Positions 29,164-47,509 of a DNA stretch of 64,000 bases are shown here, piece after piece (the first letter of the stretch is position 1; each line of letters begins with the position of its first letter). The notes below the pieces were generated by a model. It was given only the letters and a program-made list of their open reading frames with translations, ran no database searches and was not told the DNA's origin. Made by a program: the position numbers and the translations under genes. Origin of the DNA: Candidatus Woesearchaeota archaeon (GTDB taxonomy: Archaea > Nanobdellota > Nanobdellia > Pacearchaeales > GW2011-AR1); NCBI GenBank assembly GCA_964412025.1, contig CAYPLY010000002.1, positions 33,614-97,613 on the forward strand, read 5' to 3'.

Positions 29164-29197
29164 AACTTTTTTTAAAATTTAATGATTATTTAGAAAA

Positions 29198-30238: not shown

Positions 30239-30436
30239 TTAAGATTTCTTGAACTTAGCAACCAGCTCTAACTGGTCTTCCTGTCCTAAGAAAATTGCTC
30301 TGCAACAGAACCTTTCGAGTCCTAACTCATCTAAAACCTTTTTTGAGCTTTCTCCCTGAGCTACTCGTTTTTTGTATTCTTCCCATAAGTGACCAATCGG
30401 TTTACCACAGGAAAAACATCTAACTGGAATTATCAT
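30239..30436 (-). CDS. rpoN: DNA-directed RNA polymerase subunit N (Rpo10/RpoN)
   Basis: MIIPVRCFSCGKPIGHLWEEY...ELGLERFCCRAIF is canonical RpoN/Rpb10. Confidence 0.9.
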   Translation of the reverse strand: MIIPVRCFSCGKPIGHLWEEYKKRVAQGESSKKVLDELGLERFCCRAIFLGQEDQLELVAKFKKS

Positions 30437-33539: not shown

Positions 33540-34247
33540 ATGGCAAACACAAACAAAATAGATGAAAAGTATGTATTCAGAGAAAGTATAGAAGATAGTT
33601 TAGCAAATGCAATAAGACGATATGTTGGGCAAATTCAGATTGCTGCTATAGATGAAGTAGAAATATCAAAAAATGATTCTCCTCTTTATGATGAAACTCT
33701 TGCACATAGATTAGGATTGATTCCTTTAAAACAGAATTCAAAAAAAGAGGGGAAAATGAAATTATCTTCACAAGATAAAGGGGTAGTTTATTCGGGATCT
33801 TTAAAGGGAGACTTTGAGGTTGTATATGACAAAATACCTATAACTTTACTTGGAGAAGGACAGGAAATAGAATTGTCTGCGAATATAAAAATTGGTGTTG
33901 GAAAAGAACATGCAAAATTCTCTCCGGGGATAATGAATTACAGAGAAGCTGCTGAAATACATACAGATAAGGAGATTGCAGAAAAGATAAAAGAAATGTT
34001 TCCAAATACAGATATTAAACAAAAAGGGGATAAATATATTATATTAGATAACGGAGATACAGAAGTTGCTGATTTATGCGAAGGTCTTGCTGAAAAATAT
34101 AATAAAAAAATTGAAGTGAAAAATACTGGAGAAATGATTATTACTCTGGAATCTTTCGGGCAGATAGATGCAAAAAGCATATTTACCAAGTCTATTGAAG
34201 CTTTGAAAAAAGATTTGGGTGAGATTGGGAAGAAGATTAGCAAATAA
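33540..34247 (+). CDS. rpoD: DNA-directed RNA polymerase subunit D (Rpo3)
   Basis: ANAIRRYVGQIQIAAIDEVEI...ETLAHRLGLIPLK is canonical RpoD/Rpb3; no Fe-S cysteine cluster. Confidence 0.85.
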   Translation: MANTNKIDEKYVFRESIEDSLANAIRRYVGQIQIAAIDEVEISKNDSPLYDETLAHRLGLIPLKQNSKKEGKMKLSSQDKGVVYSGSLKGDFEVVYDKIPITLLGEGQEIELSANIKIGVGKEHAKFSPGIMNYREAAEIHTDKEIAEKIKEMFPNTDIKQKGDKYIILDNGDTEVADLCEGLAEKYNKKIEVKNTGEMIITLESFGQIDAKSIFTKSIEALKKDLGEIGKKISK

Positions 34248-34742
34248 ATAAAATTATAATTATATAAGAGATATGTTTCTTAGAATAATATATATGAATA
34301 TATTTTCATATGTTTTTGTAAAAAAAGGATAAAGATATATCCTTTAATAGAGTCAGTTAAATCTTGGGGGTTTGATATTTCCAGACAATTTTCTTGTCAA
34401 TTTTTTTTCCAAGAATATACAAAATTACCCCAAAGAATTATCGCGCAAAAAACAATTAAGTTGCGGACATGTTTCCCTAAATTGGACACTAAAGAAAAAT
34501 AAAAACCAACTCCTAGTGTGCCCAATCTTAAAAAAGCTAAGAAAAACCAGAGTTTTTTCATGATCTTATTTTTTAATGATTATTATTAATTGATTATATC
34601 TTGTTCTGATTTAATGCAGGGTATTGTATTCAAAGAAAAAGAAGGCTCCTGCAAAAAGAGAGTTATGGCAAAAGAAATGCAAGAGCCTTCAAAAGCACAC
34701 AATTAAGTGTAGGAAGAATTTTTGGTAAATCTAATTTGAGAA

Positions 34743-34994
34743 CTAATCACTTCTCTCACCTCTTTTCTTACAAGAATAAATAAGGTCGGCGATAAATGAA
34801 CCTATCATACCAAGAAAAGCAAGTAAAGTTATTATGCTCCATGCTGTAAACAAGGAATGTCCAAAAGAGTATCCTCCTTTGTAGGGTTCTCCAAAGATTT
34901 TGAAAAGGATAAAATCAATTATTAGCAATACAAAAAAGATTATAGCTAATTTCTTGCTTAAACCCCATCCTTTTATTGAATTGGGTAATTTCAC
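34743..34994 (-). CDS. Small membrane protein (2 TM), hypothetical
   Basis: Two hydrophobic helices; 83 aa. Confidence 0.35.
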   Translation of the reverse strand: MKLPNSIKGWGLSKKLAIIFFVLLIIDFILFKIFGEPYKGGYSFGHSLFTAWSIITLLAFLGMIGSFIADLIYSCKKRGERSD

Positions 34995-35013
34995 TGCTCA
35001 CCTCCTTTCTGAG

Positions 35014-35478
35014 TTAATTAAAATCTCCATTAAATGAAACTGGCTTATCCTGAGAAACTTCAATCTTAAAGTAGTCTGACATATTAGAGAGTTTTACGTT
35101 CTTTTCAGGTAGTCTTTTAATGTTCTTAAAGAGAATTTTAACTCTCGTAACCTTACTTTCTTCTATAATAAGAGGAAAGGTAGTATCCAGCGTTGATACC
35201 CTGACAGAAAAGCTATACTCTCCAGGATGTTTAGCGATAAATAAGGAAGTTTTCTCTAAGGTAAGATTGCCTCCAGGAAGATGTCCTTCATAGAATTCTT
35301 CTCCTTTAAACGCGCTGTAAATGGAGTAATTAAATTCACTATCTCCTTCTCCAGGCATATAATAAAATTCTACATATCCCTTTGGAGATCCCTCTGAAAT
35401 CTTGTCAATAACTTTAACTGGAGAGCATCCTGTAAAAAGTATGACCAAAATTGAGTTTAACAAAAAAAATGATTTCAT
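35014..35478 (-). CDS. Lipoprotein with bacterial-type lipobox
   Basis: Signal peptide ending LFTGC|S, which fits the [LVI][ASTVI][GAS]C lipobox. Confidence 0.5.
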   Translation of the reverse strand: MKSFFLLNSILVILFTGCSPVKVIDKISEGSPKGYVEFYYMPGEGDSEFNYSIYSAFKGEEFYEGHLPGGNLTLEKTSLFIAKHPGEYSFSVRVSTLDTTFPLIIEESKVTRVKILFKNIKRLPEKNVKLSNMSDYFKIEVSQDKPVSFNGDFN

Positions 35479-35534
35479 GCGTTTCCTCCTATTATTTTTT
35501 AAATTAAAAATTAAAAGAAATTTCCTTAAACAAA

Positions 35535-35684
35535 TTAAGCACGTATACGCTTAATCTTTTCTCTATCGAGAACACGGTGTTTCCGATTGTACCTCATTGT
35601 CTTTTCAACCTTATCTGGATTAAGTAGGGCAATCTGAGGAATCTCTTTTTTTCTGGGCTTCGTATTCTTAACCGATTTATTCAC
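35535..35684 (-). CDS. Unannotated 49-aa highly basic ORF (GTG start)
   Basis: GGAGGA 7 nt upstream of GTG; translation MNKSVKNTKPRKKEIPQIALLNPDKVEKTMRYNRKHRVLDREKIKRIRA; not in the supplied ORF track. Confidence 0.3.
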   Translation of the reverse strand: MNKSVKNTKPRKKEIPQIALLNPDKVEKTMRYNRKHRVLDREKIKRIRA

Positions 35685-35732
35685 AGCTAGATCCTCCAAA
35701 ATTAAAATTAAACGATAATAAATACGTAAATA

Positions 35733-35768
35733 AAAACCCCCGAAAGGGTAACCTTCTCGGGGGTTTTT
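35733..35768. terminator. Bidirectional intrinsic-terminator-like hairpin
   Basis: AAAAACCCCCGAAAGG-GTAA-CCTTCTCGGGGGTTTTT: ~11-bp G/C-rich stem flanked by A5 and T5, between convergent or adjacent minus-strand genes. Confidence 0.5.
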
Positions 35769-35793
35769 CTAAGACAAGGGGAAACATAGGGTG

Positions 35794-36306
35794 TTACCTT
35801 TTACGTATCTCATCGCCATTCTGATCAAGGACCCAGAATTTATTCCCGCTTGCTTCAACCAAAAGAGTTGGAATATTGTCAAACGGAGGGGTCCCGGCAG
35901 GAGATTCTTTCAATATCCAAACCTTCTCATCGGGTTGCCTGTGAAGAAAATACTCATACAAATTCAACACCTCAAGCTGAAAGGTAGGAAACTTCGTCAC
36001 AACAGATGGAAACAGATACTTAACGAGATAACGCTCTTCCGCAAAATCAGTAAACTCGAGGGGAAACAAGGAAACACGAAATTCTGCTTCGTCCGATATG
36101 AACTTCTCTTTATCCACATTTACTGTAATAACCTCTCCTGGTTCGAGTTGAGAGACAAGAGATATAAATCCCTTGATAAGCACCTGCTCGCTTTGTTTTG
36201 GTGGTGGAGGTGGGGGAGGAGGAGTTTCGACAACAGCCTCTTTTTTCTTACAACCTGCTCCTAGAGCAAGTAAAAAGATTACTACTAAAAAAACAAACTT
36301 TTTCAT
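35794..36306 (-). CDS. Lipoprotein with poly-proline linker
   Basis: LALGAGC|KKK lipobox; PPPPPPPP linker after the signal peptide. Confidence 0.5.
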   Translation of the reverse strand: MKKFVFLVVIFLLALGAGCKKKEAVVETPPPPPPPPKQSEQVLIKGFISLVSQLEPGEVITVNVDKEKFISDEAEFRVSLFPLEFTDFAEERYLVKYLFPSVVTKFPTFQLEVLNLYEYFLHRQPDEKVWILKESPAGTPPFDNIPTLLVEASGNKFWVLDQNGDEIRKR

Positions 36307-36494
36307 AGTTCTAAAAATTTAAAGTTAAACAATAAAATTACTTTTTTGGGTGTTCAGCCCTTTTTTGAACAATTATATTTTCCCTTTCTTATTTATTATG
36401 AAGTTAATAATTAATATTGGAATATATTTTGTAAGAATTCTTTTCAAAGAAAAAGGGCAAATCCTAACTTGAAAGATATGCCCTTCTATTGGTA

Positions 36495-36695
36495 TTAACT
36501 CATATCCTCAATTAATTCCTGAGGTATATCTACATATTCCCAAATGCCAATGGCAATTAAGAGCGTTAATACAATAAATACAATCAGTGCAATGATTATA
36601 TTCTTAGCCACCCTACTCTGATTAGAGAGATTTACTTTTCTTATTCCAATTATTGAAATGAAAAGTATTACCAAAGCAAAAATTATTGATTTCAT
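36495..36695 (-). CDS. Small membrane protein (2 TM)
   Basis: Two hydrophobic helices, 66 aa. Confidence 0.3.
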   Translation of the reverse strand: MKSIIFALVILFISIIGIRKVNLSNQSRVAKNIIIALIVFIVLTLLIAIGIWEYVDIPQELIEDMS

Positions 36696-36707
36696 AAACC
36701 GAGTGAA

Positions 36708-37352
36708 TTATTTAGTTTGCATTGCCATAAGATATAAACATGAGCCAGAGGCAGCCATCCAACAAGACATTCCGTTGAAATCGCAAAGAAATTTAATCGT
36801 ATCTATTGAATCGTAATGATTTCTTATTGCCCTGTAACAAGCAAAGAAGTTTATTCCCTTAACTTGCTGTTCTAAATATTTATCGGGCATTGGATAAAAG
36901 TCGTTGGTTTGAATGATATTATCAATAACAAGATATTCGTCGTGCAAGAAGTTTTGAAAATTAACTCCATACATACTAACATTGCCTGTTTTTGATTCTA
37001 GATCAAACCGTGTAAAATCAATCAGATTAATAAAATATGTGTCTCCGTCTGGAAGTAATCCGGATTCCATTTTCACAATCTGTAATTCTGCCACCTTTAC
37101 AGTATCACTTTCGGTATAAATATAATATGGCAAAAACATCTGCACAGTCTCGTCATTTTCATTCTTTTGGATAGTTCCTGTGCTGTACATCCCATACTGG
37201 CTAATGGAGCATTCATATTTTATCCAGTCTGGGGAATTAAGAAACTCTCGAATCTCCTTTGGTTGAGGATCAGGAGGATTCAGTTCGGTTTTCTCACAGC
37301 CGTTTATAGTTATAAGAAACACCATTGTTAAAAAAATAGATAACTTTTTCAT
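36708..37352 (-). CDS. Putative lipoprotein, Cys-rich C-terminus
   Basis: Signal peptide ...ITINGC|EKT (near-lipobox); six Cys in the last 60 aa. Confidence 0.4.
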   Translation of the reverse strand: MKKLSIFLTMVFLITINGCEKTELNPPDPQPKEIREFLNSPDWIKYECSISQYGMYSTGTIQKNENDETVQMFLPYYIYTESDTVKVAELQIVKMESGLLPDGDTYFINLIDFTRFDLESKTGNVSMYGVNFQNFLHDEYLVIDNIIQTNDFYPMPDKYLEQQVKGINFFACYRAIRNHYDSIDTIKFLCDFNGMSCWMAASGSCLYLMAMQTK

Positions 37353-37571
37353 TGACTTTCACTTTTAGTTAAACAATAAAAAATTATAATTAATAAGGTA
37401 TATATTATTCTGCTTCAAGGAGCAGATTATTGCATACAAAAGAAAGGAAACCCCCGAGGATTGGTAATCATTTTAAAAATTATACAACGAGGGTTTCCAA
37501 ATAGACAAAATGACAAGCGCTCCATCGAGAGGATTTCTGCCTTGTCTTTCTCAACTTCACTGATTGTTACA

Positions 37572-37949
37572 TTAAGAATACAAGATAAAGATTACAATTA
37601 AACTAAACAAAATAGAAAGAAAAGTCCCGGCCATACCCCCAAAAAGATAAGAAAGAATGGAAGTAGAGTCTATACCTATTTCTTTAAAAAAAGAGGCTTC
37701 TTCCTCTGGTGAGTTGTATCTCCTGGGTTGCTTAATATATTTCCATACTGAAAATAATATAATGCAAATCAAGGGATAAAATGGAAGAAACAGGAGAGAG
37801 ATTACCCAGAGGTTTTGGTATTTGTAAAAGAAATTATCAAAGAATAGCAATGAAAGGGCAAAATATGCACCCAAAACTATTCCAGATACAAAAAAGAACA
37901 AACGATGTTTGCCTTTAATCTGTCCAATTAAATTACAAACTTTTTTCAT
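37572..37949 (-). CDS. Membrane protein (3-4 TM), hypothetical
   Basis: Hydrophobicity only. Confidence 0.3.
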   Translation of the reverse strand: MKKVCNLIGQIKGKHRLFFFVSGIVLGAYFALSLLFFDNFFYKYQNLWVISLLFLPFYPLICIILFSVWKYIKQPRRYNSPEEEASFFKEIGIDSTSILSYLFGGMAGTFLSILFSLIVIFILYS

Positions 37950-37969
37950 GGCATTAAATATTAATAAAG

Positions 37970-39565
37970 TTAATAATAAGAAACAACAAGTTTAGGCCTT
38001 CTTCTTGAATAAGGATGATCTCCACTATAAATTTCTCCCCAGGTATAATTTGCTGCGGTAGAAATCTTAAATCCATAATTCGCTTCTCTTCCAAGTAACC
38101 AATTCTTAACTGTTTGTGTTACATCCCATGAATGCCAGGAGTAGACTCCTTCAGGAGAGAAATCAATAATCCCTAATGGCTCAGAATCGGGAAGATTTTC
38201 AAATGAAACTTCGGACTCTACCCATGGACCCAATAACTTGTGCAGGCTCATTGAAGGAGAGGTATTAGACTGGTTAATTATAGCATAGCCATAAACCTCA
38301 AGACTAACGGACAAAATGGCTGCATTTAATGGAATCTCTCCAATAGAAAATTGTAATAGCATCCAGTCTATTTGGCTAGAACCGCTTAAATCCCCCTCAT
38401 ATACTACACTAATTAAGGAATCACTACCAGAACTACTGTAAGAATAAGTTCCATTTGAAAAGGTAGATCTGCTTACCCATGCATCCTTGCCTAATGGACC
38501 TGGTTGAATAACTAAATTCCTTAAAGGAAAATTATTTCTCATTCTTTGTGCCAGAAGAGCTAAATCTTCTTCAAGATATTCCATTTCTTCAACATAATCT
38601 GCGTACTTACTCAAACCCATATTTGCAAGGGAAATAAGACAAGAGGTAGGATCTGCACTGGTTGTACAAGTGTAGGCAGTGGATGTTAATTTGTATTTAT
38701 CCATAAACTCAGTAAATCCGTTTTGAACATTTGCATCCTCAAGGAAATTATCTGCCATCTTGAGAAAATAATTCCCGCATGTCCAGAGCGCAAGAGGAAT
38801 AGCAAAACCTCCAGATACAAGTGCCGCGGCTCCCGAAGCAACACATGGAATTGCCCCTATGATTCTTCCTGTCCACCGAATAAAATCTGCCTTGGATTTA
38901 GTAGAATTATCAGATTTGAATGAAGATGGCCAGACAAAATCCGTTTCAACTTCTCTAACAACCTGAATATCTCCAGAGGGGAAAAGAATCCCGAAATCAA
39001 CTTTGTTTCCATTAAAATTGTCAAACATAAACACAAAGTCGTCTACCATTACTTTATCAGGCAATCCATTTTCATTGAATGTAATCCCATAATCTTTATT
39101 CTCTTTAAAAGAATGATAAAAGACAAACTTTGGAAGAAAGTTTTCCTCTTCAATAAAGAAGTACTCCTCTTTTCCAACAACCCAATACTCCCAATCAGAT
39201 TCGTTATGCACATCTACCACCGTAAAATCTGGAAGCATCTTTTTAATTGAGGTAAATGGGATCTCAATATAATTCAATTCATCTGAAGCTATAGGTACTT
39301 GTGAGGAGAATATTAAGTCAAAATCCTCATCTAAGATATCTATTTTCTGCGCCCCTTCAGGGACTCTGGCAAGATAAAAATATCCTTTTAAATCTGTATG
39401 TGTAAGCAGATTACCAGCGACTATTATCTCCAAGTTGGGAATAGGATTAGATTTGTTTTTTATAAATACATATCCTTCAAGTTCTCCAAAACCACTTGGA
39501 GGAGGATCCTCATCACATGATATTGCTATGAATATCAAAAGTGAAAAAAAGACAAATTTTTTCAT
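37970..39565 (-). CDS. Large secreted lipoprotein with carboxypeptidase-regulatory-like N-terminal domain
   Basis: ...FIAISC|DED lipobox-like; GYVFIKN...NLEIIVAGNLLTHTDLKGYFYLARVPEG resembles a CarbopepD_reg beta-sandwich; Trp-rich C-terminal domain. Confidence 0.4.
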   Translation of the reverse strand: MKKFVFFSLLIFIAISCDEDPPPSGFGELEGYVFIKNKSNPIPNLEIIVAGNLLTHTDLKGYFYLARVPEGAQKIDILDEDFDLIFSSQVPIASDELNYIEIPFTSIKKMLPDFTVVDVHNESDWEYWVVGKEEYFFIEEENFLPKFVFYHSFKENKDYGITFNENGLPDKVMVDDFVFMFDNFNGNKVDFGILFPSGDIQVVREVETDFVWPSSFKSDNSTKSKADFIRWTGRIIGAIPCVASGAAALVSGGFAIPLALWTCGNYFLKMADNFLEDANVQNGFTEFMDKYKLTSTAYTCTTSADPTSCLISLANMGLSKYADYVEEMEYLEEDLALLAQRMRNNFPLRNLVIQPGPLGKDAWVSRSTFSNGTYSYSSSGSDSLISVVYEGDLSGSSQIDWMLLQFSIGEIPLNAAILSVSLEVYGYAIINQSNTSPSMSLHKLLGPWVESEVSFENLPDSEPLGIIDFSPEGVYSWHSWDVTQTVKNWLLGREANYGFKISTAANYTWGEIYSGDHPYSRRRPKLVVSYY

Positions 39566-39707
39566 CTTCTTAAAAGTTTAAAATATTAAGACTATTTTTT
39601 GCGAATTATACAACAAGAGTTTTCAAAAACCATAAAATAATAAACGACTCATCTCAAAAGTTTTGTTCTACCCAAGTGTACAAACAAAAATACTTTTTCG
39701 GTAGTTG

Positions 39708-40481
39708 TTATATTGAAAGAATAATTCCTGCGGAGAATAAATTGTTGTCCACTCTTAATTTATATTCTGAGAAATTTGCAGTTGCCCAAGTTGTAGACCA
39801 TCTAAAATCCAAGATAGTTTTTGGAGATAAACGAATGCATGTTCCTAAAGCAACTGAAAATCCAAGACCGTCTCCATTTATGGTATCTTCATACTCTCTT
39901 TCTTTAATAAAAACTGCCTTTGGTCCTATTTCTGTGTAAATTAAAAAAGAATCTTCTTGAAAATCTCCCCAGGAGAACTTTACAAATCCTCCTACCTGAA
40001 AATAATCAAGGGTAACTTCATTCTGCGACTTTGATGCAATGTCAAGGGAAGCTCCAATTTTAAGATGAGCAAATAGCTGTTTTTCGAGACCTGCACCTAA
40101 AGATAAGTTTGTTCCAAAAAAGTCTGAAAGATCTTCATTCCCCCAGATTTGTCCGGAAATCCTCGCGAATAAATCAATATTCGAAGAGGTTGATCTTTTG
40201 ATGTAAGAAGAACTTTCTTCTGAATTAAGTTGAGGGGATAAATCAGGGAATGTTTCAATATTTCCATCCTCATAAACTATGTGAGAGATTTCTGAAATAG
40301 AGATGCTTCTTACGGGGCCTTCAAGAAATTCAATTGGTTTGTACTTAATTGAATTCTCTTGAATTTCAAGAATCTTTACTTTTATCACAGACTTGTCCTT
40401 TTTTATTAAGGATTCCTGAGATAACAAAGAGGTTGTTATAAACATCAACCCCAATATCAGAGAAAAAACTTTTGCTTTCAT
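39708..40481 (-). CDS. Secreted beta-rich protein, outer-membrane-beta-barrel-like
   Basis: Signal peptide; alternating hydrophobic pattern (DLFARISGQIWG, LKIGASLDIA, FSVALGTCIRL, FRWSTTWATANF). Confidence 0.35.
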   Translation of the reverse strand: MKAKVFSLILGLMFITTSLLSQESLIKKDKSVIKVKILEIQENSIKYKPIEFLEGPVRSISISEISHIVYEDGNIETFPDLSPQLNSEESSSYIKRSTSSNIDLFARISGQIWGNEDLSDFFGTNLSLGAGLEKQLFAHLKIGASLDIASKSQNEVTLDYFQVGGFVKFSWGDFQEDSFLIYTEIGPKAVFIKEREYEDTINGDGLGFSVALGTCIRLSPKTILDFRWSTTWATANFSEYKLRVDNNLFSAGIILSI

Positions 40482-40530
40482 TTGATTAAATTTTAAAGAT
40501 TAATTACTAAAAAAATTAGATTATACTTTC

Positions 40531-40941
40531 TCAAATAAAAACCTTCCTCAGTCCAGAGATAAGCAGGATAATTAAAAGGCAGAATACAAATGAAGGAACG
40601 CCTCCAAAGTAATACAAGAATACATCAAGCGAGAGGGAAACTCTCCTATCTACCCATTTGTATCTTATCTCGGGTGCATTAGTTTTAATCTTAGAGGAGT
40701 TTAGAGAGAGTTTGGGAAAACGGGCAATAAAAAAATCATTAACAAAAAATGTTAAAAAAGACATCAGGGAGTAAATTATCCCAAACGCTAGAAGAGCCAG
40801 TAGCACATATTTATTAATCCCTTCTATTCCTTTAAGGAGTGTAAGTGAAAGAGAAGAATAAATTCCTGCAAGCAATCCAATAAGAATAAATAATATAACC
40901 CTCATTGGAAATTCCGTTTTAAAAGATTTAATTTTTTTCAT
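40531..40941 (-). CDS. Membrane protein (4 TM), hypothetical
   Basis: Hydrophobicity only. Confidence 0.3.
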   Translation of the reverse strand: MKKIKSFKTEFPMRVILFILIGLLAGIYSSLSLTLLKGIEGINKYVLLALLAFGIIYSLMSFLTFFVNDFFIARFPKLSLNSSKIKTNAPEIRYKWVDRRVSLSLDVFLYYFGGVPSFVFCLLIILLISGLRKVFI

Positions 40942-40959
40942 TTCTTTAAATTTTAAAAG

Positions 40960-41364
40960 TTATTTAATTTTGGACAATTTTGAGTACCTATCAATAAGTT
41001 TCATTCCTCCTTCATTAAGAAAAGCTTCATATACCAAACAAAGTACAAAAAGGTTGGCTAATACAGAGCCAATAAGAATCACAAGAATCGAAGAGAGTGT
41101 ATTTGAAACACTAACCAGGGCAATAAAATAGAGGCAAGAATAACCAAGAATACCTTTGAAGAGATATGCATAGTAATATCCCCATTTATAGATTTTACCT
41201 GAACTGCTACCTGAGTAAAGGAAGGGTTCAAGAAGACATATGTAGGCATATATGTGTGCAGGAAAAAGAGGCAATAGCATACCAAGTATCCAAGTTAGTT
41301 TTCTAGATTTCAAAGAAAAAGTATATGAAATCCACAGATTAATATTTAAGATAAAATTTTTCAT
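40960..41364 (-). CDS. Membrane protein (4 TM), hypothetical
   Basis: Hydrophobicity only. Confidence 0.3.
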   Translation of the reverse strand: MKNFILNINLWISYTFSLKSRKLTWILGMLLPLFPAHIYAYICLLEPFLYSGSSSGKIYKWGYYYAYLFKGILGYSCLYFIALVSVSNTLSSILVILIGSVLANLFVLCLVYEAFLNEGGMKLIDRYSKLSKIK

Positions 41365-41417
41365 TTTGTTTAAAATTTAAATTATTAAAATTATTTTCTT
41401 TTTTTGGGACATAAAAA

Positions 41418-42100
41418 TTAGAAATTATATACAAATCCCAAAGACCAAAGCAAGCTGTTCTTTGTTCCTGGTTCTGTCTGAATGTATTCTGTAAAAGAGC
41501 CATTAACAGCAATCTTTTCATTAAATTTAACTGTCTTTTTCATACCGAACATATGGGAAGCAGAATTAGTTTGATAATGAAAAAGGACGTAGTAGAAATC
41601 AACTCCATTCAAATAAGAAGGAGAGTATGTAAATTGCTGGAATGAAAAGATAAAAATTATATCTTTTAATGAAGTCTCTCCAACTTCAGGTATTCCTGCT
41701 GACCATCCGAACCAATGATTTGTAACTAATTGATTCTTAAACATTTTAAAACTGACCATTGGCCCCGCCCAAGGAAGATTGTGATAAATTCACTAGGCTG
41801 TAAAACAATGTTTTTAGTTAGAGGGATGTCATATACAATTTGTCCTAAGACCCCGTTATAACAAAGCCATGCAGAATTTCTTCCATTTGATAAAAAGGCA
41901 TCAACATTTAATCCAGAACTAAGAGGAGTTTCTCCAGTGGTAAGAGCTATGGAAGTTAATTTCCATTCATTTTTGGAAACGCTAGCGAGCGTAGAAGATT
42001 CCTGTCCGAAAATAAAGCAATCGGAGAATGCAAGAAGAAGAGCAGTCAAGATAATGAATATCATCAACCATCTTTCACTAAAAGGTTCAGAATTTTTCAT
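41418..42100 (-). pseudogene. Frameshifted secreted beta-rich protein (two overlapping ORFs, 41726..42100 and 41418..41759)
   Basis: The upstream ORF carries a signal peptide plus lipobox-like LLAFSDC; the downstream ORF ends ...LWSLGFVYNF (C-terminal aromatic, beta-barrel-like); the two reading frames differ, so a single-base indel or sequencing error would join them. Confidence 0.4.
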
Positions 42101-42140
42101 GAGAGTATTATTTTAAATTGTTGATATTATGCAATTTTGA

Positions 42141-42434
42141 TTAATAATCTATTTTCTTTAGTAATAATCTGGAAATAAACCCACAAAGTAAAGAAAGAGT
42201 GAATAGAAAAATGCAGATTTGAAATTGGGTTGCCTTGAAGTTAAGGTTAAGCATACTAATAAAGTAATTTATGATATTCTCCAGAGTATCCCAAAATTTA
42301 ATCTTAGATTCATAAATGTATCCGTATTCAGTATATTCCATATCCAAGAAAGGAAAAAGTAGAATTAGGAGTAAAGCAAAAGTAAATGATGAGTACATCA
42401 TAAAATTTAGGAATTTAATGAGAATCTTTTCCAT
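42141..42434 (-). CDS. Small membrane protein (2-3 TM)
   Basis: Hydrophobicity only. Confidence 0.3.
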   Translation of the reverse strand: MEKILIKFLNFMMYSSFTFALLLILLFPFLDMEYTEYGYIYESKIKFWDTLENIINYFISMLNLNFKATQFQICIFLFTLSLLCGFISRLLLKKIDY

Positions 42435-42500
42435 TGTTGTTTAATTTATTGAGTTAGTATTAATTCGTTAATTTTTCATAATTTGTGATTTCGGTTTTTT

Positions 42501-42650
42501 CAGGTATTTCTAGCGCGCGAATTCGTGTGCGAATATATGTATAATATAGGGGTTAAAATTTCAGGGTATTTTAAGGGTATTTTTGGGTATTTCAGGTGAA
42601 ATAACGCATTAGGTAATAGTAATCTTTTGAGAATTATCGAGGTATTTCTC
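42501..42650. repeat. Iteron-like array of GGTATTT(T/C) repeats plus adjacent GC-rich palindrome (GCGCGCGAATTCG)
   Basis: cAGGTATTTc, cAGGGTATTTt, aAGGGTATTTt, tGGGTATTTc, gAGGTATTTc within ~150 bp of a ~450-bp non-coding region whose top strand is G/T-rich. Confidence 0.45.
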
Positions 42651-42899
42651 GTGTTTTTTCGTCTTATGCAGTGTCTGGTGTCTGAGATCGACAGTGCGAT
42701 TTTTTCACATTGTTTAAATCAACAAAGTGTTTGCACATCAAATTTAATTCAAAATCTTGTATATTCAGCTTTTATTATTTCAATAAATTGAAATTTTTTG
42801 TATGCTGAGTTGTGTTCGATTTTGTGTTTATTTGGACGTTTGTGCTTTGTGTGTTTTTGATTTATATTTTTTAGGTGAATATTATGTATCTTATTGATA

Positions 42900-44963
42900 T
42901 TAATTGGATAATCTTATTATCTTTTTCCATCCTTTATCGCTTCTTTCTTCATGTATTTTTATTAAACCTTTATTCAATAATTTGTTTTTAAGTATGTTAC
43001 CTTTTCTAGTAGAAAGTCCGATTATTTTGTAAATCTCTACGGTGCTATTGGTATGGGAGGGGTTTTCATTCAGGAAATCCAAAAATCTCTTTTCTTCTGA
43101 AAAGCTTTTAGTGTATAAATTATCCTCATAAATAACTTCAATTATAGGTTTATTTGTTATTCCTTCATTAACCGGAGTATCGGATTCATCTTTCTGATAA
43201 TTTATTTTACCCAGCTTAACTGAATTAAGATAATCCTCTTTTGTTAAGATTCTTCCAAGAGCATAATTTGTTGCTAAGAATATGTCTGCCTCTTTGTAAA
43301 GCTTTTCAGAAATTCCTCCCTCAAGTATCTTTTCTGCCTCCTTAATAGTTCTTCCTTTTTCAACTTGCTTTTTTATGAAATCATAGAGAACGTCCTGAAC
43401 AGGAGTTAGCCCTGTTTTTTCTTCAACTTCATGTACTTCGGAGATTAGAGAATTATCCTCTATATTTTTAGACATTCCTGTTTTTTTAAGATTTATTTCG
43501 ATAGGATTTATATTAGAAGTTGAGTGTGGATTGATTAGAGCTTCTCTAAATTCAGGATCACCCTTTTCAACTTCCAATCCCTGTACGACACAATCCATTT
43601 TTCCTGTAATTTTTTCATCGGAGATATTTGAATTTCTTAAATCAGTATATGGAACCTTAATTAAAAATGGACTTGTATATCTCTCTGAAAGTTTTACTAC
43701 GGCACAACCCACAGGTAACTGGGTGAAAATTTCTCTTCTCTCAGGTATCTGCATTATGGAACTTATATCATAAACATCTTGAGGTAATTGCTGTTGAAAT
43801 GCTATATGACAAGCACTATTTCCTTTTACAGTATCGCTTAATTTTGAGATATGTTGATCTAGACAGATTAGACAAGTTCCATATTCTCTCATCTCTCTGT
43901 AAATCATATCCGTAACAGATTCTGAAACAAAGTAGGTATTACCCTTTAAGAAGATATTATGTGCTTCATCGACAAGAATGGCATGATTAAACCCCTCAGT
44001 TGTCTTTTCAGAGTTAGCTTTCTTTAATTTAAATATATAAGTTAGGATATACTCTGCAAAAAATTTCTTTTCAATATTCCCCAAAGAATTTAACTCAAAG
44101 ATAACTCTTTTATCAAAGAGCTCATCGACTGAAAGACTTTTCTTACCATCATAGTTTATAACTTTACCAAAATCCCCAAAGGTAAGGATAGTTGCAATCC
44201 TAAGAGCGCTTTCATACCAGGTTGCTTCTCTTCCTCTCGCCTCTCTTGCTTTTATTTCAAGCATTTTCTTGATATGCATCCAATTGGGATAGTGTTGTGA
44301 ACCCTTGTATACCTCCCATCCTTCAAAAACCTCATCCAAGGTTTCAAGTAATATCTTGTGTACTCCAAAAGAAACACAAAAGCTCTCTGTGAGCAAATCA
44401 CATAAGGTGTTTATCCATTCTTTAGGTGAAACTCCCTTTGGAGGTATGTTAATGTTTGTCTTAAATAGATTGCTTATAGAATCATTGCCAACTGTAAAAC
44501 ACATAACTGAAGGATCTGTATTAATTAAAGATCTGAAACTTTTTTTCCAGTCAAATACCAAAAAAGGTTTGTCTTTTTCTATAAATCTCTGAAGAATATT
44601 TAATGCAAGAGTTGTTTTACCACTTCCACTCATCCCACTTATACAAACATGTCTTGGCCAGTCTTGTTCTCTCAATGAAAAGGGGAATAATTCTTTATTT
44701 GCATAAACTACCTTTGAAAGTTCATATTCTCCTGAGACTGCACTTTGAGTTGGGGGTTCAAGTAAAACTTTCTTGTCTAGAAACTCTCCTAAATATTTCT
44801 GGTATAGAGCACTTAAAATCTGAACGATTTGATTTCTTTCTTCTGGAGATTCGGACATAGAATATCTGAAGTAAAGCTCGTCTATTTTTCTCCCAAGTAT
44901 TGGCTTTAACTTTGAACTTATTTCTTCTATAGAAAGAGATCTTTGATAGGTCATTTTAATCAT
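42900..44963 (-). CDS. HerA/FtsK-superfamily P-loop ATPase (DUF87/AAA_10-like) with C-terminal winged-helix domain
   Basis: Walker A CISGMSGSGKTT; Walker B AILVDEAHNIF; C-terminal KIIGLSTRKGNILKNKLLNKGLIKI wHTH-like; 687 aa. Confidence 0.6.
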   Translation of the reverse strand: MIKMTYQRSLSIEEISSKLKPILGRKIDELYFRYSMSESPEERNQIVQILSALYQKYLGEFLDKKVLLEPPTQSAVSGEYELSKVVYANKELFPFSLREQDWPRHVCISGMSGSGKTTLALNILQRFIEKDKPFLVFDWKKSFRSLINTDPSVMCFTVGNDSISNLFKTNINIPPKGVSPKEWINTLCDLLTESFCVSFGVHKILLETLDEVFEGWEVYKGSQHYPNWMHIKKMLEIKAREARGREATWYESALRIATILTFGDFGKVINYDGKKSLSVDELFDKRVIFELNSLGNIEKKFFAEYILTYIFKLKKANSEKTTEGFNHAILVDEAHNIFLKGNTYFVSESVTDMIYREMREYGTCLICLDQHISKLSDTVKGNSACHIAFQQQLPQDVYDISSIMQIPERREIFTQLPVGCAVVKLSERYTSPFLIKVPYTDLRNSNISDEKITGKMDCVVQGLEVEKGDPEFREALINPHSTSNINPIEINLKKTGMSKNIEDNSLISEVHEVEEKTGLTPVQDVLYDFIKKQVEKGRTIKEAEKILEGGISEKLYKEADIFLATNYALGRILTKEDYLNSVKLGKINYQKDESDTPVNEGITNKPIIEVIYEDNLYTKSFSEEKRFLDFLNENPSHTNSTVEIYKIIGLSTRKGNILKNKLLNKGLIKIHEERSDKGWKKIIRLSN

Positions 44964-45411
44964 TTAAGATTCCATTTAATTCATTTATTCTTCCTTCTTT
45001 TTCACTAAGCTCTTTCTCATATACTCTAAGTTCTTTCTTTAAAAGAGCTATATCCTTCCAACAGTTAATTTTCTCATTAAGCTGAAGCTCAGAAATCTCT
45101 ACTTTTTTATTTCTAAGAGCATTTTTCTCAATTAAAGCCTCATTTTGACCAAGAGCTCTTATGGTGCTTTCGTTACCGATTATAAGATTATTAATCTCTA
45201 ATTTTATATCTTCTGCATCTTTTATAAACTCCAAACTTAACCTCTTTCTTTCATCAACGAGTTGTTTTATTTCTTGGATGGCTTTCTTAAGAGAAGATAT
45301 TCTCTCCTGTCCCACTACATCCAACATATTTCCATCTGAAAAACCAGTTATTTCGGGTTTTTCGAGCCCAATCAGAGGGGTTTTATTCTTAGGATATACA
45401 CTCGAGACCAT
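44956..45411 (-). CDS. Coiled-coil protein, translationally coupled to the ATPase
   Basis: Heptad-rich K/E/L sequence; 8-nt overlap with the ATPase start. Confidence 0.35.
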   Translation of the reverse strand: MVSSVYPKNKTPLIGLEKPEITGFSDGNMLDVVGQERISSLKKAIQEIKQLVDERKRLSLEFIKDAEDIKLEINNLIIGNESTIRALGQNEALIEKNALRNKKVEISELQLNEKINCWKDIALLKKELRVYEKELSEKEGRINELNGILND

Positions 45412-45526
45412 AATTATTTAGTAGTAACATTATTTATAAACCTTGCTATTTTATACCTACTAATTAGTTACATCAAATTAGAGATAAAGGTTTTTATAGA
45501 GCCTTATTTTTGTAACAAGATACTAC

Positions 45527-45610
45527 GTGGGTGTGCCGGAGCGGTCAAACGGGACAGACTCAAAATCTGTTAGCTTAGTGCTTACCTAGGTTCGAATCCT
45601 AGCACCCACA
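45527..45610 (+). tRNA. tRNA-Leu (anticodon CAA)
   Basis: Acceptor GTGGGTG/CACCCAC; D-arm CCG-GAGCGGTCAAA-CGG; anticodon stem ACAGA/TCTGT with loop CTCAAAA; long variable arm; T-arm CTAGGTTCGAATCCTAG. Confidence 0.8.
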
Positions 45611-45749: not shown

Positions 45750-46121
45750 ATGAAATCAAAAACAAAGATATCCAAACAAATTGAAAGAAAAGGTAATTCA
45801 GAACTAATTGAAACTGTAATTGCCGGGAAGAAACAAGAAGCATGGTTGCCCATTGTAGGTGTTCTCTCTGGGCCTAGAAAAAATAGTATATGTATAAACA
45901 TTGAACAAATAAATAAGGAAGCTAAATCTGGAGAAACAGTTGTTATTCCAGGTAAAGTACTTTCTCAGGGAGATATAGACAAAAAGATAAAGGTCGTTGC
46001 GTTTAATTTTTCAGATAAAGCAAAAGAAAAATTATTAAGTGCGAAATGTGAACTATCAAGTATATTAGAAGAAATTAAATCAAATCCTTCTGGAAAAGGG
46101 ATAAGAATACTAAAAAAATGA
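45750..46121 (+). CDS. rpl18e: 50S ribosomal protein L18e
   Basis: Order L18e-L13-S9; sequence IAGKKQEAWLPIVGVLSGPRKNS...VVIPGKVLSQGDIDKKIKVVAFNFSDKAKEKL fits L18e. Confidence 0.75.
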   Translation: MKSKTKISKQIERKGNSELIETVIAGKKQEAWLPIVGVLSGPRKNSICINIEQINKEAKSGETVVIPGKVLSQGDIDKKIKVVAFNFSDKAKEKLLSAKCELSSILEEIKSNPSGKGIRILKK

Positions 46122-46510
46122 AAGTAATTGATGGTAAAAATGCAGTTCTTGGAAGATTGGCTACTTATGTAGCTAAAGAAGCTCTGAAGGGAGAAGAGAT
46201 AAAGATAGTTAATTGTGAACAGGTAATAATAACCGGAAATAGAGAGTTTATAGAAAAAGATTTTATACAAAAAAGAAGCAGAGTTGGTACAAGACAAATT
46301 GGACCAAAGGTCTCAAGAACAAGCGAAAAAATTGTTAAGAGAGCTATAAGAGGGATGCTTCCAGATCATAGGGTAGGTAGAGGAAGAGAAGCATTTAAGA
46401 GAATAATTTGTTATACAGGACTTCCAGAAGAATTAAGAGATGTTAAAAAAATAACATTTAATCATGAAGATAAATTAAAATATATACAGGTTAAAAAAAT
46501 ATCCAAATGA
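46118..46510 (+). CDS. rpl13: 50S ribosomal protein L13 (uL13)
   Basis: IDGKNAVLGRLATYVAKEALKGEEIKIVNCEQVIITG L13 N-terminal signature. Confidence 0.85.
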   Translation: MKVIDGKNAVLGRLATYVAKEALKGEEIKIVNCEQVIITGNREFIEKDFIQKRSRVGTRQIGPKVSRTSEKIVKRAIRGMLPDHRVGRGREAFKRIICYTGLPEELRDVKKITFNHEDKLKYIQVKKISK

Positions 46511-46908
46511 AAAAAATAATAGCATCAGGAAAAAGAAAGACTGCGATAGCAAGAGCGGAGATAAAAGAAGGAGAGGGGAAGATAACCATAAATAAAAGGG
46601 ATTATCTTCATCTACACAGATTCGATGTTCTTAGAATAAAGGAGCCAATCCTTATTGCAGAGAGAGTATTAGGAAAGATAAACTTCGACGTAATTATCTC
46701 TGTTAAGGGGGGAGGAGAGAAAGGACAGATAGATGCTGCTAGATTAGCACTTGCAAGAGCAATCATAAAATTCTCTGAATCAACAGAACTAGAGAAACAA
46801 TTCTTGGAATATGATCGTAATCTTTTAGTTGCAGACGTAAGAAGGAAAGAAGCCAATAAGCCTGGAGATTCAAAGGCTAGAGCTAAGAGGCAAAGTTCTT
46901 TCAGATAA
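46507..46908 (+). CDS. rps9: 30S ribosomal protein S9 (uS9)
   Basis: GKRKTAIARAEIKEGEGKITIN...VKGGGEKGQIDAARLALARAI...RRKEANKPG...KARAKRQSSFR. Confidence 0.85.
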   Translation: MKKIIASGKRKTAIARAEIKEGEGKITINKRDYLHLHRFDVLRIKEPILIAERVLGKINFDVIISVKGGGEKGQIDAARLALARAIIKFSESTELEKQFLEYDRNLLVADVRRKEANKPGDSKARAKRQSSFR

Positions 46909-47504: not shown

Positions 47505-47509
47505 ATAAT

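What the first reader, a model, noticed from the sequence alone, without database searches (positions are those of the whole stretch)
34248..45526. ~11.3-kb insertion splitting the conserved rpoD | rpl18e-rpl13-rps9 cluster, ending at a tRNA-Leu
In archaea rpoD is normally followed directly by L18e-L13-S9-rpoN. Here rpoD (ends 34247) and tRNA-Leu(CAA)/L18e (45527/45750) are separated by 15 minus-strand genes. These comprise lipobox lipoproteins, beta-barrel-like secreted proteins, small membrane proteins, a HerA/FtsK-like ATPase with a wHTH tail, a coupled coiled-coil protein, and a non-coding region with iteron-like repeats. rpoN has moved to 30239 on the opposite strand. The tRNA boundary and the ATPase, wHTH and iterons fit an integrated plasmid-like element or an island carrying a surface-structure cargo.
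Basis: partly seen in the sequence, partly recalled or inferred. Interest (0 to 1): 0.7.

Follow-up and report, generated by a model that had tools for sequence, protein, structure and literature searches.

The report
Conserved DNA-motor module, not a plasmid
The 11-kb "insertion" between rpoD and the L18e operon is not an integrated plasmid: it is an old, vertically inherited unit of Pacearchaeota-type DPANN archaea, made of an uncharacterised DNA-motor ATPase with a DNA-binding tail, a coiled-coil partner, a conserved repeat-and-hairpin non-coding element, and a fast-changing set of cell-surface genes.

Summary
rpoD (ends 34247) and tRNA-Leu(CAA)/L18e (45527/45750) are separated by 15 minus-strand genes.

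The mobile-element reading fails. There is no integrase inside, no att repeat and no compositional deviation. The tRNA-Leu sits upstream of L18e in all three relatives scanned.

The HerA/VirB4-class ATPase (42900-44963) and its coiled-coil partner (44956-45411) have relatives in at least 162 species representatives. They are about as conserved as the neighbouring ribosomal proteins. In about 40 species they sit divergently next to L18e, with rpoD 2-10 kb downstream wherever it lies within the fetched range. In a second clade the same unit lies among other housekeeping genes.

Two things always follow the ATPase:
- A roughly 350-460-nt non-coding element (42435-42899). It holds phased GAAATACC repeats, about 27-fold enriched and strand-specific, plus two hairpins with covariation in relatives.
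- A co-oriented, rapidly turning-over array of small membrane proteins, lipoproteins and an OmpA/NspA-like beta-barrel.

Best reading (inferred): a chromosomal, site-specifically loaded DNA motor whose HTH/wHTH tail docks on the repeat array, beside a surface-gene plasticity zone. No description of this family turned up in three full-text searches.

The parts
33540..34247 (+). rpoD (RNA polymerase subunit D); left boundary, last gene of the S13-S4-S11-rpoD block
   Evidence: Pfam RNA_pol_A_bac 2.9e-14 and RNA_pol_L. Found 2.1-9.8 kb downstream of the ATPase in 19 relatives.
34743..42434 (-). Variable island of 13 co-oriented genes for small membrane proteins, lipoproteins and secreted proteins
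   Evidence: ORFs. Each gene is found in only 0-12 of the fetched loci, and identities to L001 are well below that of the ATPase (35-64% against 83%). Gene order differs even from the closest relative, L084. There are no Pfam hits to T4SS parts.
37970..39565 (-). 531-aa lipoprotein with a CarboxypepD_reg-like N-domain and a CBM96/DNRLRE C-domain
   Evidence: Pfam CBM96 1.3e-11. NCBIfam DNRLRE_dom 1.8e-22, above cut-off. Lipobox AISC.
39708..40481 (-). Secreted protein with a C-terminal 8-stranded OmpA/NspA/OmpW-like beta-barrel
41418..42100 (-). Frameshifted copy of a 223-aa signal-peptide protein (family f22)
   Evidence: tblastn with the L084 orthologue: residues 1-98 in frame -1 (42100-41792) and residues 101-223 in frame -3 (41789-41421).
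42435..42899 (-). Conserved non-coding element downstream of the ATPase gene. In order along the ATPase strand: ATATTCAC box 42875-42882; G/T-poor CA-rich tract; inverted repeat 42777-42794; hairpin HpA 42706-42729; hairpin HpB 42668-42697; GAAATACC copies at 42641-42647, 42586-42592, 42576-42582, 42565-42571 and 42503-42509; GC-rich palindrome 42513-42531
   Evidence: Coordinates. Conserved against L001, L002 and L004. Motif enrichment and strand bias; spacing in multiples of about 10.6 nt. Hairpin covariation in 23 relatives; the window's own copy scores only 7.6 bits. RNA fold z -2.87 on this strand against -0.32 on the other. No Rfam family.
42900..44963 (-). 687-aa HerA/VirB4/DptH-class P-loop motor ATPase. 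It has a conserved N-domain, Walker A GMSGSGKT, Walker B VDEAHN, two disordered linkers, a 3-helix HTH-like module (about residues 521-572) and a terminal wHTH (623-685)
44956..45411 (-). 151-aa coiled-coil partner, overlapping the ATPase start. A variant motif pair GAAAAACCCGAAATAAC lies at about 45345-45361 (approximate, not tool-computed)
   Evidence: No Pfam family. A partner ORF was clustered in 76 loci; tblastn hits in 78 loci. Conserved C-terminal half. Motif cluster in the first 90 nt of the ORF across loci.
45527..45610 (+). tRNA-Leu(CAA), a conserved part of the L18e upstream region rather than an att site
   Evidence: ARAGORN and Rfam. Same tRNA in the same place in L001, L002 and L004. 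No repeat of either half elsewhere in the window.
45750..46908 (+). L18e-L13-S9 operon, divergent from the cc-ATPase operon
   Evidence: Pfam. Same arrangement in about 40 loci.
47803..49052 (-). XerA tyrosine recombinase (48219-49052) plus a 139-aa recombinase-like ORF (47803-48222). They lie outside the region and are conserved neighbours in clade 1
   Evidence: NCBIfam recomb_XerA_Arch 247 bits, above the 220 cut-off. Found in 39 loci. Not near the ATPase in clade 2.
30239..30436 (-). rpoN, displaced from the S9 operon
   Evidence: Pfam RNA_pol_N 7.6e-26. Same position and strand in 7 relatives whose fetched DNA reaches that far.

Best explanation
The stretch is an ancient, vertically inherited chromosomal unit of Pacearchaeota/Woesearchaeota-type DPANN archaea. 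It is not an inserted mobile element.

Shown:
- A tightly coupled pair, a coiled-coil protein and a HerA/VirB4/DptH-class P-loop motor with an HTH plus wHTH tail, is conserved about as strongly as ribosomal proteins.
- The pair is always followed on the same strand by a conserved non-coding element. This element holds GAAATACC repeats in 10-11-nt tandem units, and two hairpins that show covariation in relatives.
- After the element comes a co-oriented, fast-turnover array of surface and membrane protein genes.
- The whole unit keeps this order in two different housekeeping contexts.

Inferred:
- The motor assembles as a ring, as its structural relatives do.
- Its flexible tail, which carries an invariant wHTH recognition helix and wing, docks it on the equally invariant, helically phased GAAATACC array next to (and possibly within) its own operon.
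- The array would then serve as a centromere-, KOPS- or clt-like loading site and operator.
- The motor would be a core chromosome-handling machine for segregation, resolution or directed DNA movement, with autoregulation.
- The adjacent island would be a plasticity zone for host-interaction surface genes, whose expression or exchange is influenced by that site.
For: Conservation and position:
- Same position in about 40 species, and the same unit in a second context (L35Ae-L10e-methyltransferase | cc-ATPase-island | PEP synthase).
- ATPase identity to the window is 58-83%. In the same loci L18e is 48-79% and rpoD 51-85%.

Fold:
- In the wHTH, R653, K654, G655, N656, K659, G678, W679 and K681 are invariant in 20 sequences.

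Repeat motif:
- 149 same-strand copies against 26 opposite-strand copies within 0-400 nt of the stop codon, about 27 times background.
- Spacings fall at 10/11, 21-24, 31-33, 41-43 and 53-55 nt.
- Motif clusters also lie in the first 90 nt of the cc ORF: 29 copies, of which 7 are not in the E-I-P reading frame. A further cluster lies in the ATPase linker region.
- The array ends a median of 101 nt before the next ATG.

Further support:
- Distant family members (23-33% identical) carry a wHTH plus a PD-(D/E)xK-like nuclease motif, which points to a DNA-acting family.
- The locus lies at the window's cumulative GC-skew maximum, near xerA.
- Against L084 the region is a mosaic of 69-100% identity.
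Against: - No binding was or could be tested.
- The two hairpins show compensatory changes, and G-U pairs outnumber A-C pairs 42 to 17 on the sense strand. This fits a role in RNA or single-stranded DNA better than a purely double-stranded one.
- The 10.6-nt periodicity could simply reflect tandem units.
- 18 of 21 motif copies in the ATPase linker are in one frame (E-I-P), so peptide-level selection cannot be excluded there.
- The motor has no membrane segment and no identified divisome or partition partner.
- xerA is not nearby in clade 2.
- GC skew here is confounded by gene orientation.
- The window's own hairpin copy matches the model only weakly.
Confidence: 0.45

Rival explanations
1. 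RNA-level element. The 42435-42899 region would be a structured RNA, either the 3' UTR of the ATPase mRNA, a leader of the island operon, or an independent ncRNA. Its hairpins and single-stranded GAAAUACC repeats would be bound by an RNA-binding factor to set the relative expression of the conserved motor and the variable island. The motor's own job would be unrelated housekeeping DNA work.
For: - Two hairpins are 90% paired against 63% in shuffles, with 110 double-change cells against 35.5, and slid controls reach at most 57%.
- G-U pairs outnumber A-C pairs 42 to 17 on the sense strand.
- Fold z is -2.87 on the sense strand against -0.32 on the antisense strand.
- The first 110 nt after the stop codon are CA-rich and poor in G and T, with no long T-run in the stretch read, so read-through of the ATPase transcript is plausible.
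- Motif copies lie near the 5' end of the cc mRNA.
Against: - No Rfam family matches, even at E up to 10.
- RNAalifold on an alignment not fitted to the structure found only one hairpin, with no covariation bonus. The strong counts come from an alignment fitted to the model.
- Tandem units of 10-11 nt lying just upstream of an AT-rich promoter-like stretch look like DNA operator or centromere arrays.
- This reading does not explain why the motor carries an invariant wHTH.
Confidence: 0.2
2. Domesticated conjugation-like (Ced/Ted/T4SS-like or Streptomyces TraB-like) DNA-transfer module. The motor would pump DNA between cells from a clt/oriT-like site. The island would encode channel or pilus parts, or form the leading region that is exchanged most often.
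For: - The best named HMM is CedD, an archaeal DNA-import ATPase, at 2.5e-15 (PMC11868833).
- A C-terminal wHTH with 8-mer direct repeats at the gene's 3' end resembles TraB and its clt site (from my own knowledge of that system).
- Hairpins and strand specificity are oriT-like.
- The island is all co-oriented and mosaic between close relatives.
- It contains many 2-TM mini-proteins, and some loci have 5-7-TM proteins.
Against: - CedD scores 56 bits against a cut-off of 600, and VirB4_CagE 16.9 bits against 643.
- No VirB2, VirB6 or CedA homologue was detected by Pfam in the island families tested.
- No island family is universal.
- The motor has no TM segment, and no relaxase is present.
- The motor is far more conserved than conjugation proteins usually are.
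Confidence: 0.13
3. Dedicated transcription regulator. The motor's wHTH would bind the repeat array purely as an operator or upstream activating sequence, to switch the surface-gene island and its own operon on or off.
For: - The array lies a median of 101 nt upstream of the first island ATG, just before an AT-rich promoter-like stretch.
- Motif copies lie just inside the cc ORF, where an archaeal repressor would sit.
- The island and motor are always co-oriented and adjacent.
Against: - A 687-aa motor about as conserved as ribosomal proteins is unexpected for a regulator of accessory genes that differ between species.
- I know of no HerA/VirB4-fold transcription factor.
- The hairpin covariation is left unexplained.
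Confidence: 0.1
4. One reading: an integrated plasmid, ICE or provirus that entered at tRNA-Leu, carrying its replication or transfer ATPase, iterons and cargo.
For: - ATPase, wHTH and iteron-like repeats together resemble an initiator-plus-origin layout.
- The region has a tRNA at one end.
- The cargo is variable.
Against: - No integrase and no att repeats.
- Native composition and codon usage.
- The site is occupied in every clade-1 relative examined, with the ATPase tracking the flanking genes' divergence.
- Only remote similarity to plasmid and phage records, and no meaningful PHROGs hit.
- The tRNA is conserved with L18e.
Confidence: 0.04
5. HerA-type anti-phage defence system, with the coiled-coil protein as partner or effector.
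For: - PADLOC mad8 at 1.5e-11 and weak HerA models.
- The closest solved fold is the DptH C-domain.
- Remote bacterial homologues sit beside DUF2357 and Csm6 genes.
- Distant relatives carry a nuclease-like domain.
Against: - Near-universal presence among fetched relatives, one conserved position and ribosomal-protein-level conservation are the opposite of how defence genes behave.
- No effector domain is present in the Pacearchaeal form.
- The conserved cis element has no role in this model.
Confidence: 0.04

Closest known systems
HerA / VirB4 / VirD4(TrwB) / DptH branch of the FtsK-HerA superfamily of ring ATPases
   Different: - Sequence scores against the named families are far below their cut-offs: HerA_Thermprot 18.6 bits against 800, VirB4_CagE 16.9 against 643, CedD 56 against 600.
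- The N-domain is a lineage-specific helical-plus-hairpin module.
- There is no NurA/Mre11/Rad50 neighbour, no TM segment and no recognisable T4SS neighbours.
- It carries two C-terminal HTH-type modules, which those proteins lack.
FtsK gamma domain with KOPS, SpoIIIE with SRS, and Streptomyces TraB with clt (8-bp TRS repeats)
   Same: The design is the same. A ring DNA motor carries a flexibly tethered C-terminal winged helix, and there is a short oriented 7-8-nt motif. As with TraB and its clt site, the motif is repeated at the 3' end of the motor's own gene (the comparison rests on my own knowledge of those systems).
   Different: - It has no membrane anchor.
- The motif is concentrated in one locus; a genome-wide skew could not be tested.
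- Binding is untested.
Plasmid centromeres and operators made of phased direct repeats (for example R1 parC with ParR), and iteron origins
   Same: - Tandem 10-11-nt direct repeats lie next to the promoter of, and partly inside, the operon that encodes the presumed binding protein.
- An AT-rich stretch and inverted repeats lie nearby.
   Different: - It is chromosomal and vertically inherited.
- There is no ParA, ParM, TubZ, Rep or Orc1/Cdc6 gene nearby.
- The interleaved hairpins show covariation.
Ced/Ted archaeal DNA-exchange systems (CedB, CedD, TedB)
   Same: These are archaeal, chromosomally encoded HerA/VirB4-like ATPases used for DNA movement, accompanied by small 2-TM proteins. CedD is the best-scoring named HMM (PMC11868833, PMC9905601).
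   Different: - No CedA/VirB6-like or CedA1/VirB2-like homologue was detected.
- The motor has no TM helix, and the VirB4-type N-domain was not examined.
- A wHTH tail and a cis element are present, which are not described for Ced or Ted.

Membership tests
tRNA-targeted integrated mobile element (integrative plasmid, ICE or provirus) | Element-encoded integrase or recombinase inside the element | tested here: not met
   No such domain was found in any ORF tested between 34248 and 45526. XerA at 48219-49052 lies outside, is a chromosomal equivalog and is conserved in 39 loci.
tRNA-targeted integrated mobile element (integrative plasmid, ICE or provirus) | att direct repeats duplicating part of the tRNA at the far end | tested here: not met
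   Searches with the 3' and 5' tRNA halves, allowing up to 3 mismatches, matched only the tRNA itself. No linking repeat appeared.
tRNA-targeted integrated mobile element (integrative plasmid, ICE or provirus) | Patchy presence with empty sites in relatives, and deviating composition | tested here: not met
   The site is occupied in every clade-1 locus that reaches both flanks. Tetranucleotide z is -0.3 to -0.9. Pooled codon-usage correlation is 0.87-0.93, like the flanks.
HerA (HerA-NurA end-resection helicase) | HerA-type ATPase core | tested here: met
   [not shown]
HerA (HerA-NurA end-resection helicase) | Equivalog-level sequence match and a NurA/Mre11/Rad50 gene neighbourhood | tested here: not met
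   NCBIfam HerA_Thermprot scores 18.6 bits against a cut-off of 800. The neighbours are a coiled-coil protein and ribosomal genes.
VirB4 / CedB / CedD (T4SS-like DNA transfer) | VirB4-class ATPase domain | tested here: met
   [not shown]
VirB4 / CedB / CedD (T4SS-like DNA transfer) | Family-level sequence score | tested here: not met
   CedD scores 56.2 bits against 600. VirB4_CagE scores 16.9 bits against 643.
VirB4 / CedB / CedD (T4SS-like DNA transfer) | Adjacent VirB6/CedA-like channel and VirB2/CedA1-like pilin | tested here: inconclusive
   Pfam gave no hits for the window's small TM proteins or for representatives of island families f40, f52 and f60.
FtsK / SpoIIIE / TraB translocases | FtsK-type alpha/beta motor and an N-terminal membrane anchor | tested here: not met
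   [not shown]
FtsK / SpoIIIE / TraB translocases | C-terminal winged helix that reads an oriented 8-bp motif | not testable with these tools
   A wHTH is present and an oriented repeated 8-mer is present. Binding needs experiment.
Archaeal replication origin (ORB repeats with Orc1/Cdc6) | Orc1/Cdc6 gene adjacent, with ORB dyads flanking an AT-rich unwinding element | tested here: not met
   No Orc1/Cdc6 was found among the neighbours tested in the window or in the clade-2 context. The repeats are direct, not inverted around an unwinding element. The GC-skew turn is of the terminus type, not the origin type.
Known structured RNA family (Rfam) | Match at the gathering threshold | tested here: not met
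   Only tRNAs and 5S rRNA matched in the window. The best sub-threshold hits in 42350-42960 are C/D-box models at 17-25 bits against a cut-off of 50.
HerA-type anti-phage defence (SIR2-HerA, DUF4297-HerA, Dpt, MADS) | Effector partner and sporadic distribution | tested here: not met
   The partner is a coiled-coil protein with no enzymatic domain. The unit is present at a fixed site across the clade.

The most novel reading that the evidence does not exclude
The unit would be a chromosomal, Hfr-like DNA-exchange device. The wHTH motor would load at the GAAATACC and hairpin element, acting as a clt/oriT analogue. It would drive oriented transfer, or uptake and recombination, of the adjacent DNA between cells. 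The surface-gene island next to it would therefore be the most frequently exchanged segment, which would explain its mosaicism and turnover in these host-dependent archaea.
Probability: 0.12. Interest if true: 0.9.

Novelty: new variant of a known kind. Interest (0 to 1): 0.55.

Why it matters
Pacearchaeota and Woesearchaeota have tiny genomes, so a 687-aa motor kept about as conserved as ribosomal proteins is probably important. Yet sources label it only "DUF87/ATP-binding protein", and three full-text literature searches found no description of it.

The work gives:
- a defined protein pair;
- a candidate cis site (GAAATACC arrays and two hairpins);
- a linked hypervariable set of surface genes, including an OmpA-like barrel, which is unexpected in an archaeon not known to have an outer membrane.

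Together these make chromosome handling, and possibly gene exchange and host interaction, in uncultured DPANN archaea testable with simple binding and structural experiments. The result also corrects a tempting mis-annotation of the region as an integrated plasmid.

Tried and rejected
- **att-site search.** I searched with both tRNA halves, allowing up to 3 mismatches, and ran a general repeat search. Nothing was found.
- **Exact look-up of the window's ATPase in assemblies.** It is not on record.
- **Rfam.** Neither the gathering threshold nor E up to 10 gave a family for the non-coding element.
- **RNAalifold on a MAFFT alignment.** It recovered only one hairpin, with no covariation bonus. 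A hand-seeded covariance model was needed instead.
- **Origin hypothesis.** There is no Orc1/Cdc6 gene nearby, and the clade-2 neighbour f12 is a methyltransferase.
- **dif hypothesis.** The TGTATA-centred palindrome at about 42530-42560 is conserved only in L001 among the loci read. A dif-consensus search found only a site inside a coding region, at 19496-19515, and the hit count was within chance.
- **Plasmid and phage relatedness.** Only bacterial DUF87 proteins at 22-26% identity turned up, and PHROGs was uninformative.
- **T4SS parts in the island.** Pfam gave no hits.
- **Naming distant family members.** Cluster look-up returned almost no names.
- **Literature.** Three searches (DPANN with HerA, ATPase and Pacearchaeota; the Ced system; DPANN with VirB4) found nothing on this family.

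Full report
**Observation**

The window comes from a low-GC (about 31%) DPANN archaeon. The best protein hits are MAGs labelled Nanobdellota, Pacearchaeota or Woesearchaeota.

- rpoD ends at 34247.
- tRNA-Leu(CAA) is at 45527-45610.
- L18e, L13 and S9 follow on the plus strand.
- rpoN lies at 30239-30436 on the minus strand.

Between rpoD and the tRNA there are 15 minus-strand genes, plus one doubtful 54-aa ORF. They are:
- four lipobox lipoproteins, one with a CBM96/DNRLRE domain;
- several mini-proteins with 2-3 TM segments;
- a secreted protein whose AF2 model is an OmpA/NspA-type 8-stranded barrel;
- a DUF87 ATPase (42900-44963);
- a coiled-coil ORF (44956-45411) overlapping the ATPase start;
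- a 465-nt non-coding gap (42435-42899) with short repeats.

The description in the finding is therefore accurate.

**It is not a recent insertion**

None of the hallmarks of an integrated element is present.
- Searches with either half of the tRNA, allowing up to 3 mismatches, match only the tRNA. No linking repeat was found.
- No integrase lies inside the region.
- GC, tetranucleotide distance (z -0.3 to -0.9) and pooled codon usage (r 0.87-0.93, like the ribosomal flanks) are native.
- The region lies on the 5' side of the tRNA.
- The same tRNA-Leu(CAA) sits upstream of L18e in all three relatives scanned.
- Plasmid and phage collections hold only bacterial DUF87 proteins at 22-26% identity.

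**Distribution and synteny**

The ATPase has more than 800 detectable homologues. The best 120 are 56-99% identical over the full length, on contigs up to 290 kb. A scan of one genome per species found relatives in 162 species, and 80 loci were fetched.

In loci where the ATPase is at least about 55% identical (about 40 species), the order is constant. XerA, the 139-aa ORF, S9, L13 and L18e (with the tRNA-Leu in the three loci scanned) lie on one side. The coiled-coil gene and the ATPase run divergently from them. In the 19 loci whose fetched DNA reaches it, rpoD-S11-S4-S13 lies 2.1-9.8 kb downstream. rpoN sits on the opposite strand in the 7 loci that extend far enough.

In a second clade (ATPase 55% identical or less), the same pair lies between L35Ae-L10e-methyltransferase and a PEP-synthase gene.

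The ATPase (58-83% identical) is as conserved as L13 and S9, and more conserved than L18e and rpoD in the same loci. This is vertical inheritance of a core gene.

**The motor and its partner**

The AF2 model (mean pLDDT 72.8) shows these parts:
- a helical N-domain with a beta-hairpin;
- a RecA-like core with a four-helix insert;
- a disordered linker;
- a three-helix module at about residues 521-572;
- a second linker;
- a canonical winged helix at residues 623-685.

Named HMMs score far below their cut-offs: CedD 56 bits against 600, HerA 18.6 against 800, VirB4 16.9 against 643.

The recognition helix and wing of the wHTH are invariant in 20 diverse members: R653, K654, G655, N656, K659, G678, W679 and K681.

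A search of 1.8 billion cluster representatives finds 403 clusters at E of 1e-30 or better. Members 23-33% identical keep the N-domain and core but end in a wHTH plus a PD-(D/E)xK-like motif (GG.EH.Y ... D ... EIETGKS). This points to a DNA-acting family.

A partner ORF clusters with the window's coiled-coil protein in 76 loci (tblastn hits in 78), and its C-terminal half is strongly conserved.

**The non-coding element**

The gap after the ATPase stop codon is conserved in architecture in both clades. Reading along the ATPase strand, it contains:
1. a TCATATTCAC box;
2. a tract rich in C and A and poor in G and T;
3. an inverted repeat;
4. two hairpins, each preceded by yTGAAATACC or GAAAAACC;
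5. a spacer;
6. a tandem array of GAAATACC units;
7. in some loci, a GC-rich palindrome;
8. an AT-rich promoter-like stretch and the first island gene.

*Repeat motif.* Exact AAATACC occurs 149 times on the ATPase strand within 700 nt of the stop in 73 loci, against 26 on the other strand. Background is 0.075 per 700 nt. The copies are confined to the first 400 nt. Spacings fall at 10/11, 21-24, 31-33, 41-43 and 53-55 nt, which indicates tandem units of about 10.6 nt.

*Hairpins.* A covariance model of the two hairpins found 23 loci at E below 0.01. All hits lie about 80-290 nt after the stop, on the same strand.
- On that alignment, 90% of cells pair, against 63% in shuffles and at most 57% when the partners are slid.
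- 110 cells carry changes on both sides, against 35.5 in shuffles.
- G-U pairs outnumber A-C pairs 42 to 17.
- Caveat: this alignment is fitted to the model. RNAalifold on a plain alignment found only one hairpin.
- The window's own copy is divergent, scoring 7.6 bits.

*Motif inside coding sequence.* Motif clusters also occur inside the first 90 nt of the coiled-coil ORF. There are 29 copies, of which 7 are not in the E-I-P reading frame. They also occur in the variable linker of the ATPase, where 18 of 21 copies are in one frame.

No Rfam family matches.

**The island**

In almost every fetched locus with downstream DNA, in both contexts, the element is followed by a co-oriented run of small, poorly conserved genes. 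These mostly encode TM, lipobox or signal-peptide proteins.
- Each of the window's island genes is detectable in only 0-12 of the fetched loci.
- Against L001, where the ATPase is 83% identical, shared island genes are 35-64% identical.
- Against L084, the window is 100% identical in DNA from 54966 to about 48467. Identity then falls through 94-96% and 86% to 70-83% across the motor genes.
- The island itself is a mosaic of 69-97% identity, with gene gains, losses and reordering.
- The rpoD side is 81-88% identical.
- This pattern is either real recombination or a chimeric assembly. I cannot tell which.
- One island gene is frameshifted.

**Mechanism**

Three things are shown: the conservation, the fold and the cis element. 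What links them is inference.

I favour a chromosomal, site-specifically loaded ring motor. The invariant wHTH on a flexible tether would dock the motor on the equally invariant, phased GAAATACC array beside (and possibly within) its own operon. This would resemble FtsK-gamma with KOPS, TraB with clt, or ParR with parC (these comparisons rest on my own knowledge). The motor would serve chromosome handling and autoregulation, next to a plasticity zone of surface genes.

Weak supporting context is that the locus lies at the window's cumulative GC-skew maximum and close to xerA. However, skew is confounded by gene strand, and xerA is absent from the clade-2 neighbourhood.

The main rival is an RNA-level role for the element, supported by the covariation, the G-U bias and the strand-specific folding. 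A Ced/T4SS-like DNA-transfer role is the most novel reading that remains open. The ATPase fold fits it, but no channel or pilin homologue was detected. The defence and mobile-element readings are contradicted by the distribution.

**Novelty**

Sources label the protein only "DUF87/ATP-binding protein". Three full-text searches found no description of this family or element. I rate it a new variant of a known kind: a HerA/VirB4-class motor system with a distinctive tail, partner and cis element.

**Limits**
- No binding, expression or complete-genome data were available.
- All relatives are MAG contigs.
- Covariation counts lean towards the model used to build the alignment.
- The periodicity may reflect tandem-unit length rather than helical phasing.

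Noticed in passing
[not shown]
   Followed up: partly
window 54966-32030 versus L084 (CAZTCF010000004.1): DNA identity is 100% from 54966 to about 48467, apart from a patch at 52966-51967. It then decays to 70-83% across L18e, cc and the ATPase, and stays at 81-88% on the rpoD side. The break lies at the xerA / 139-aa ORF. This is either recombination between lineages about 82% identical or a chimeric metagenome contig.
   Followed up: partly
window 41418-42100 (-): The homologue of a 223-aa signal-peptide protein (family f22, found in 11 loci) is split by a single frameshift at about 41790. No homopolymer run is present there. It may be a pseudogene or an assembly error.
   Followed up: yes
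distant relatives P0141, P0161, P0232, P0257, P0269: Family members 23-33% identical to the ATPase replace the Pacearchaeal double-HTH tail with a wHTH followed by a PD-(D/E)xK-like nuclease motif (GG.EH.Y ... D ... IA.EIETGKS).
   Followed up: partly
cc ORF first 90 nt (window about 45345-45361) and the ATPase linker in relatives (for example L001 11495-11511): The GAAATACC motif recurs inside coding sequence. There it usually encodes E-I-P or P-E-I, so both proteins carry (P)EIP peptides in otherwise variable segments. Whether selection acts on the nucleic acid or on the peptide is unresolved.
   Followed up: partly
window 47803-49052 (-): An XerA equivalog (247 bits, above the 220 cut-off) is paired with a 139-aa ORF that weakly resembles the C-terminal part of serine recombinases (CcrA 4e-4). 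The pair is conserved downstream of the S9 operon in 39 loci.
   Followed up: partly
window 29198-30436 (-): rpoN abuts a GH3 glycoside hydrolase gene on the same strand with no spacer (30239/30238). A lone 5S rRNA (29051-29165) and a tRNA cluster (28163-28981) lie just beyond.
   Followed up: no
window 51985-59298 (-): A giant 2437-aa surface protein (Big_13, Gly_rich_2 and Big_7 domains) is the only part of the window with deviating tetranucleotide composition (z up to 3.0). Its 3' end is the one divergent patch inside the block that is 100% identical to L084.
   Followed up: no
window 46939-47800 (+): Three small membrane protein genes (TM2-like, DUF2752 and DUF4389) are appended to the L18e-L13-S9 operon, in place of rpoN and rpoK. 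DUF4389 is shared with 22 relatives.
   Followed up: no
window 19496-19515 (+): AATATAATCCGGATTATATC matches the archaeal dif core (ATATAA-N6-TTATAT) with one mismatch. It lies inside an ORF, and the number of hits is within chance expectation.
   Followed up: yes
window 42513-42531 (-): A GC-rich alternating purine-pyrimidine palindrome, CGCACACGAATTCGCGCGC, sits between repeat copies in a 31% GC genome. Variants recur in about ten relatives (L001, L002, L008, L010, L013, L026, L027, L035, L084).
   Followed up: no
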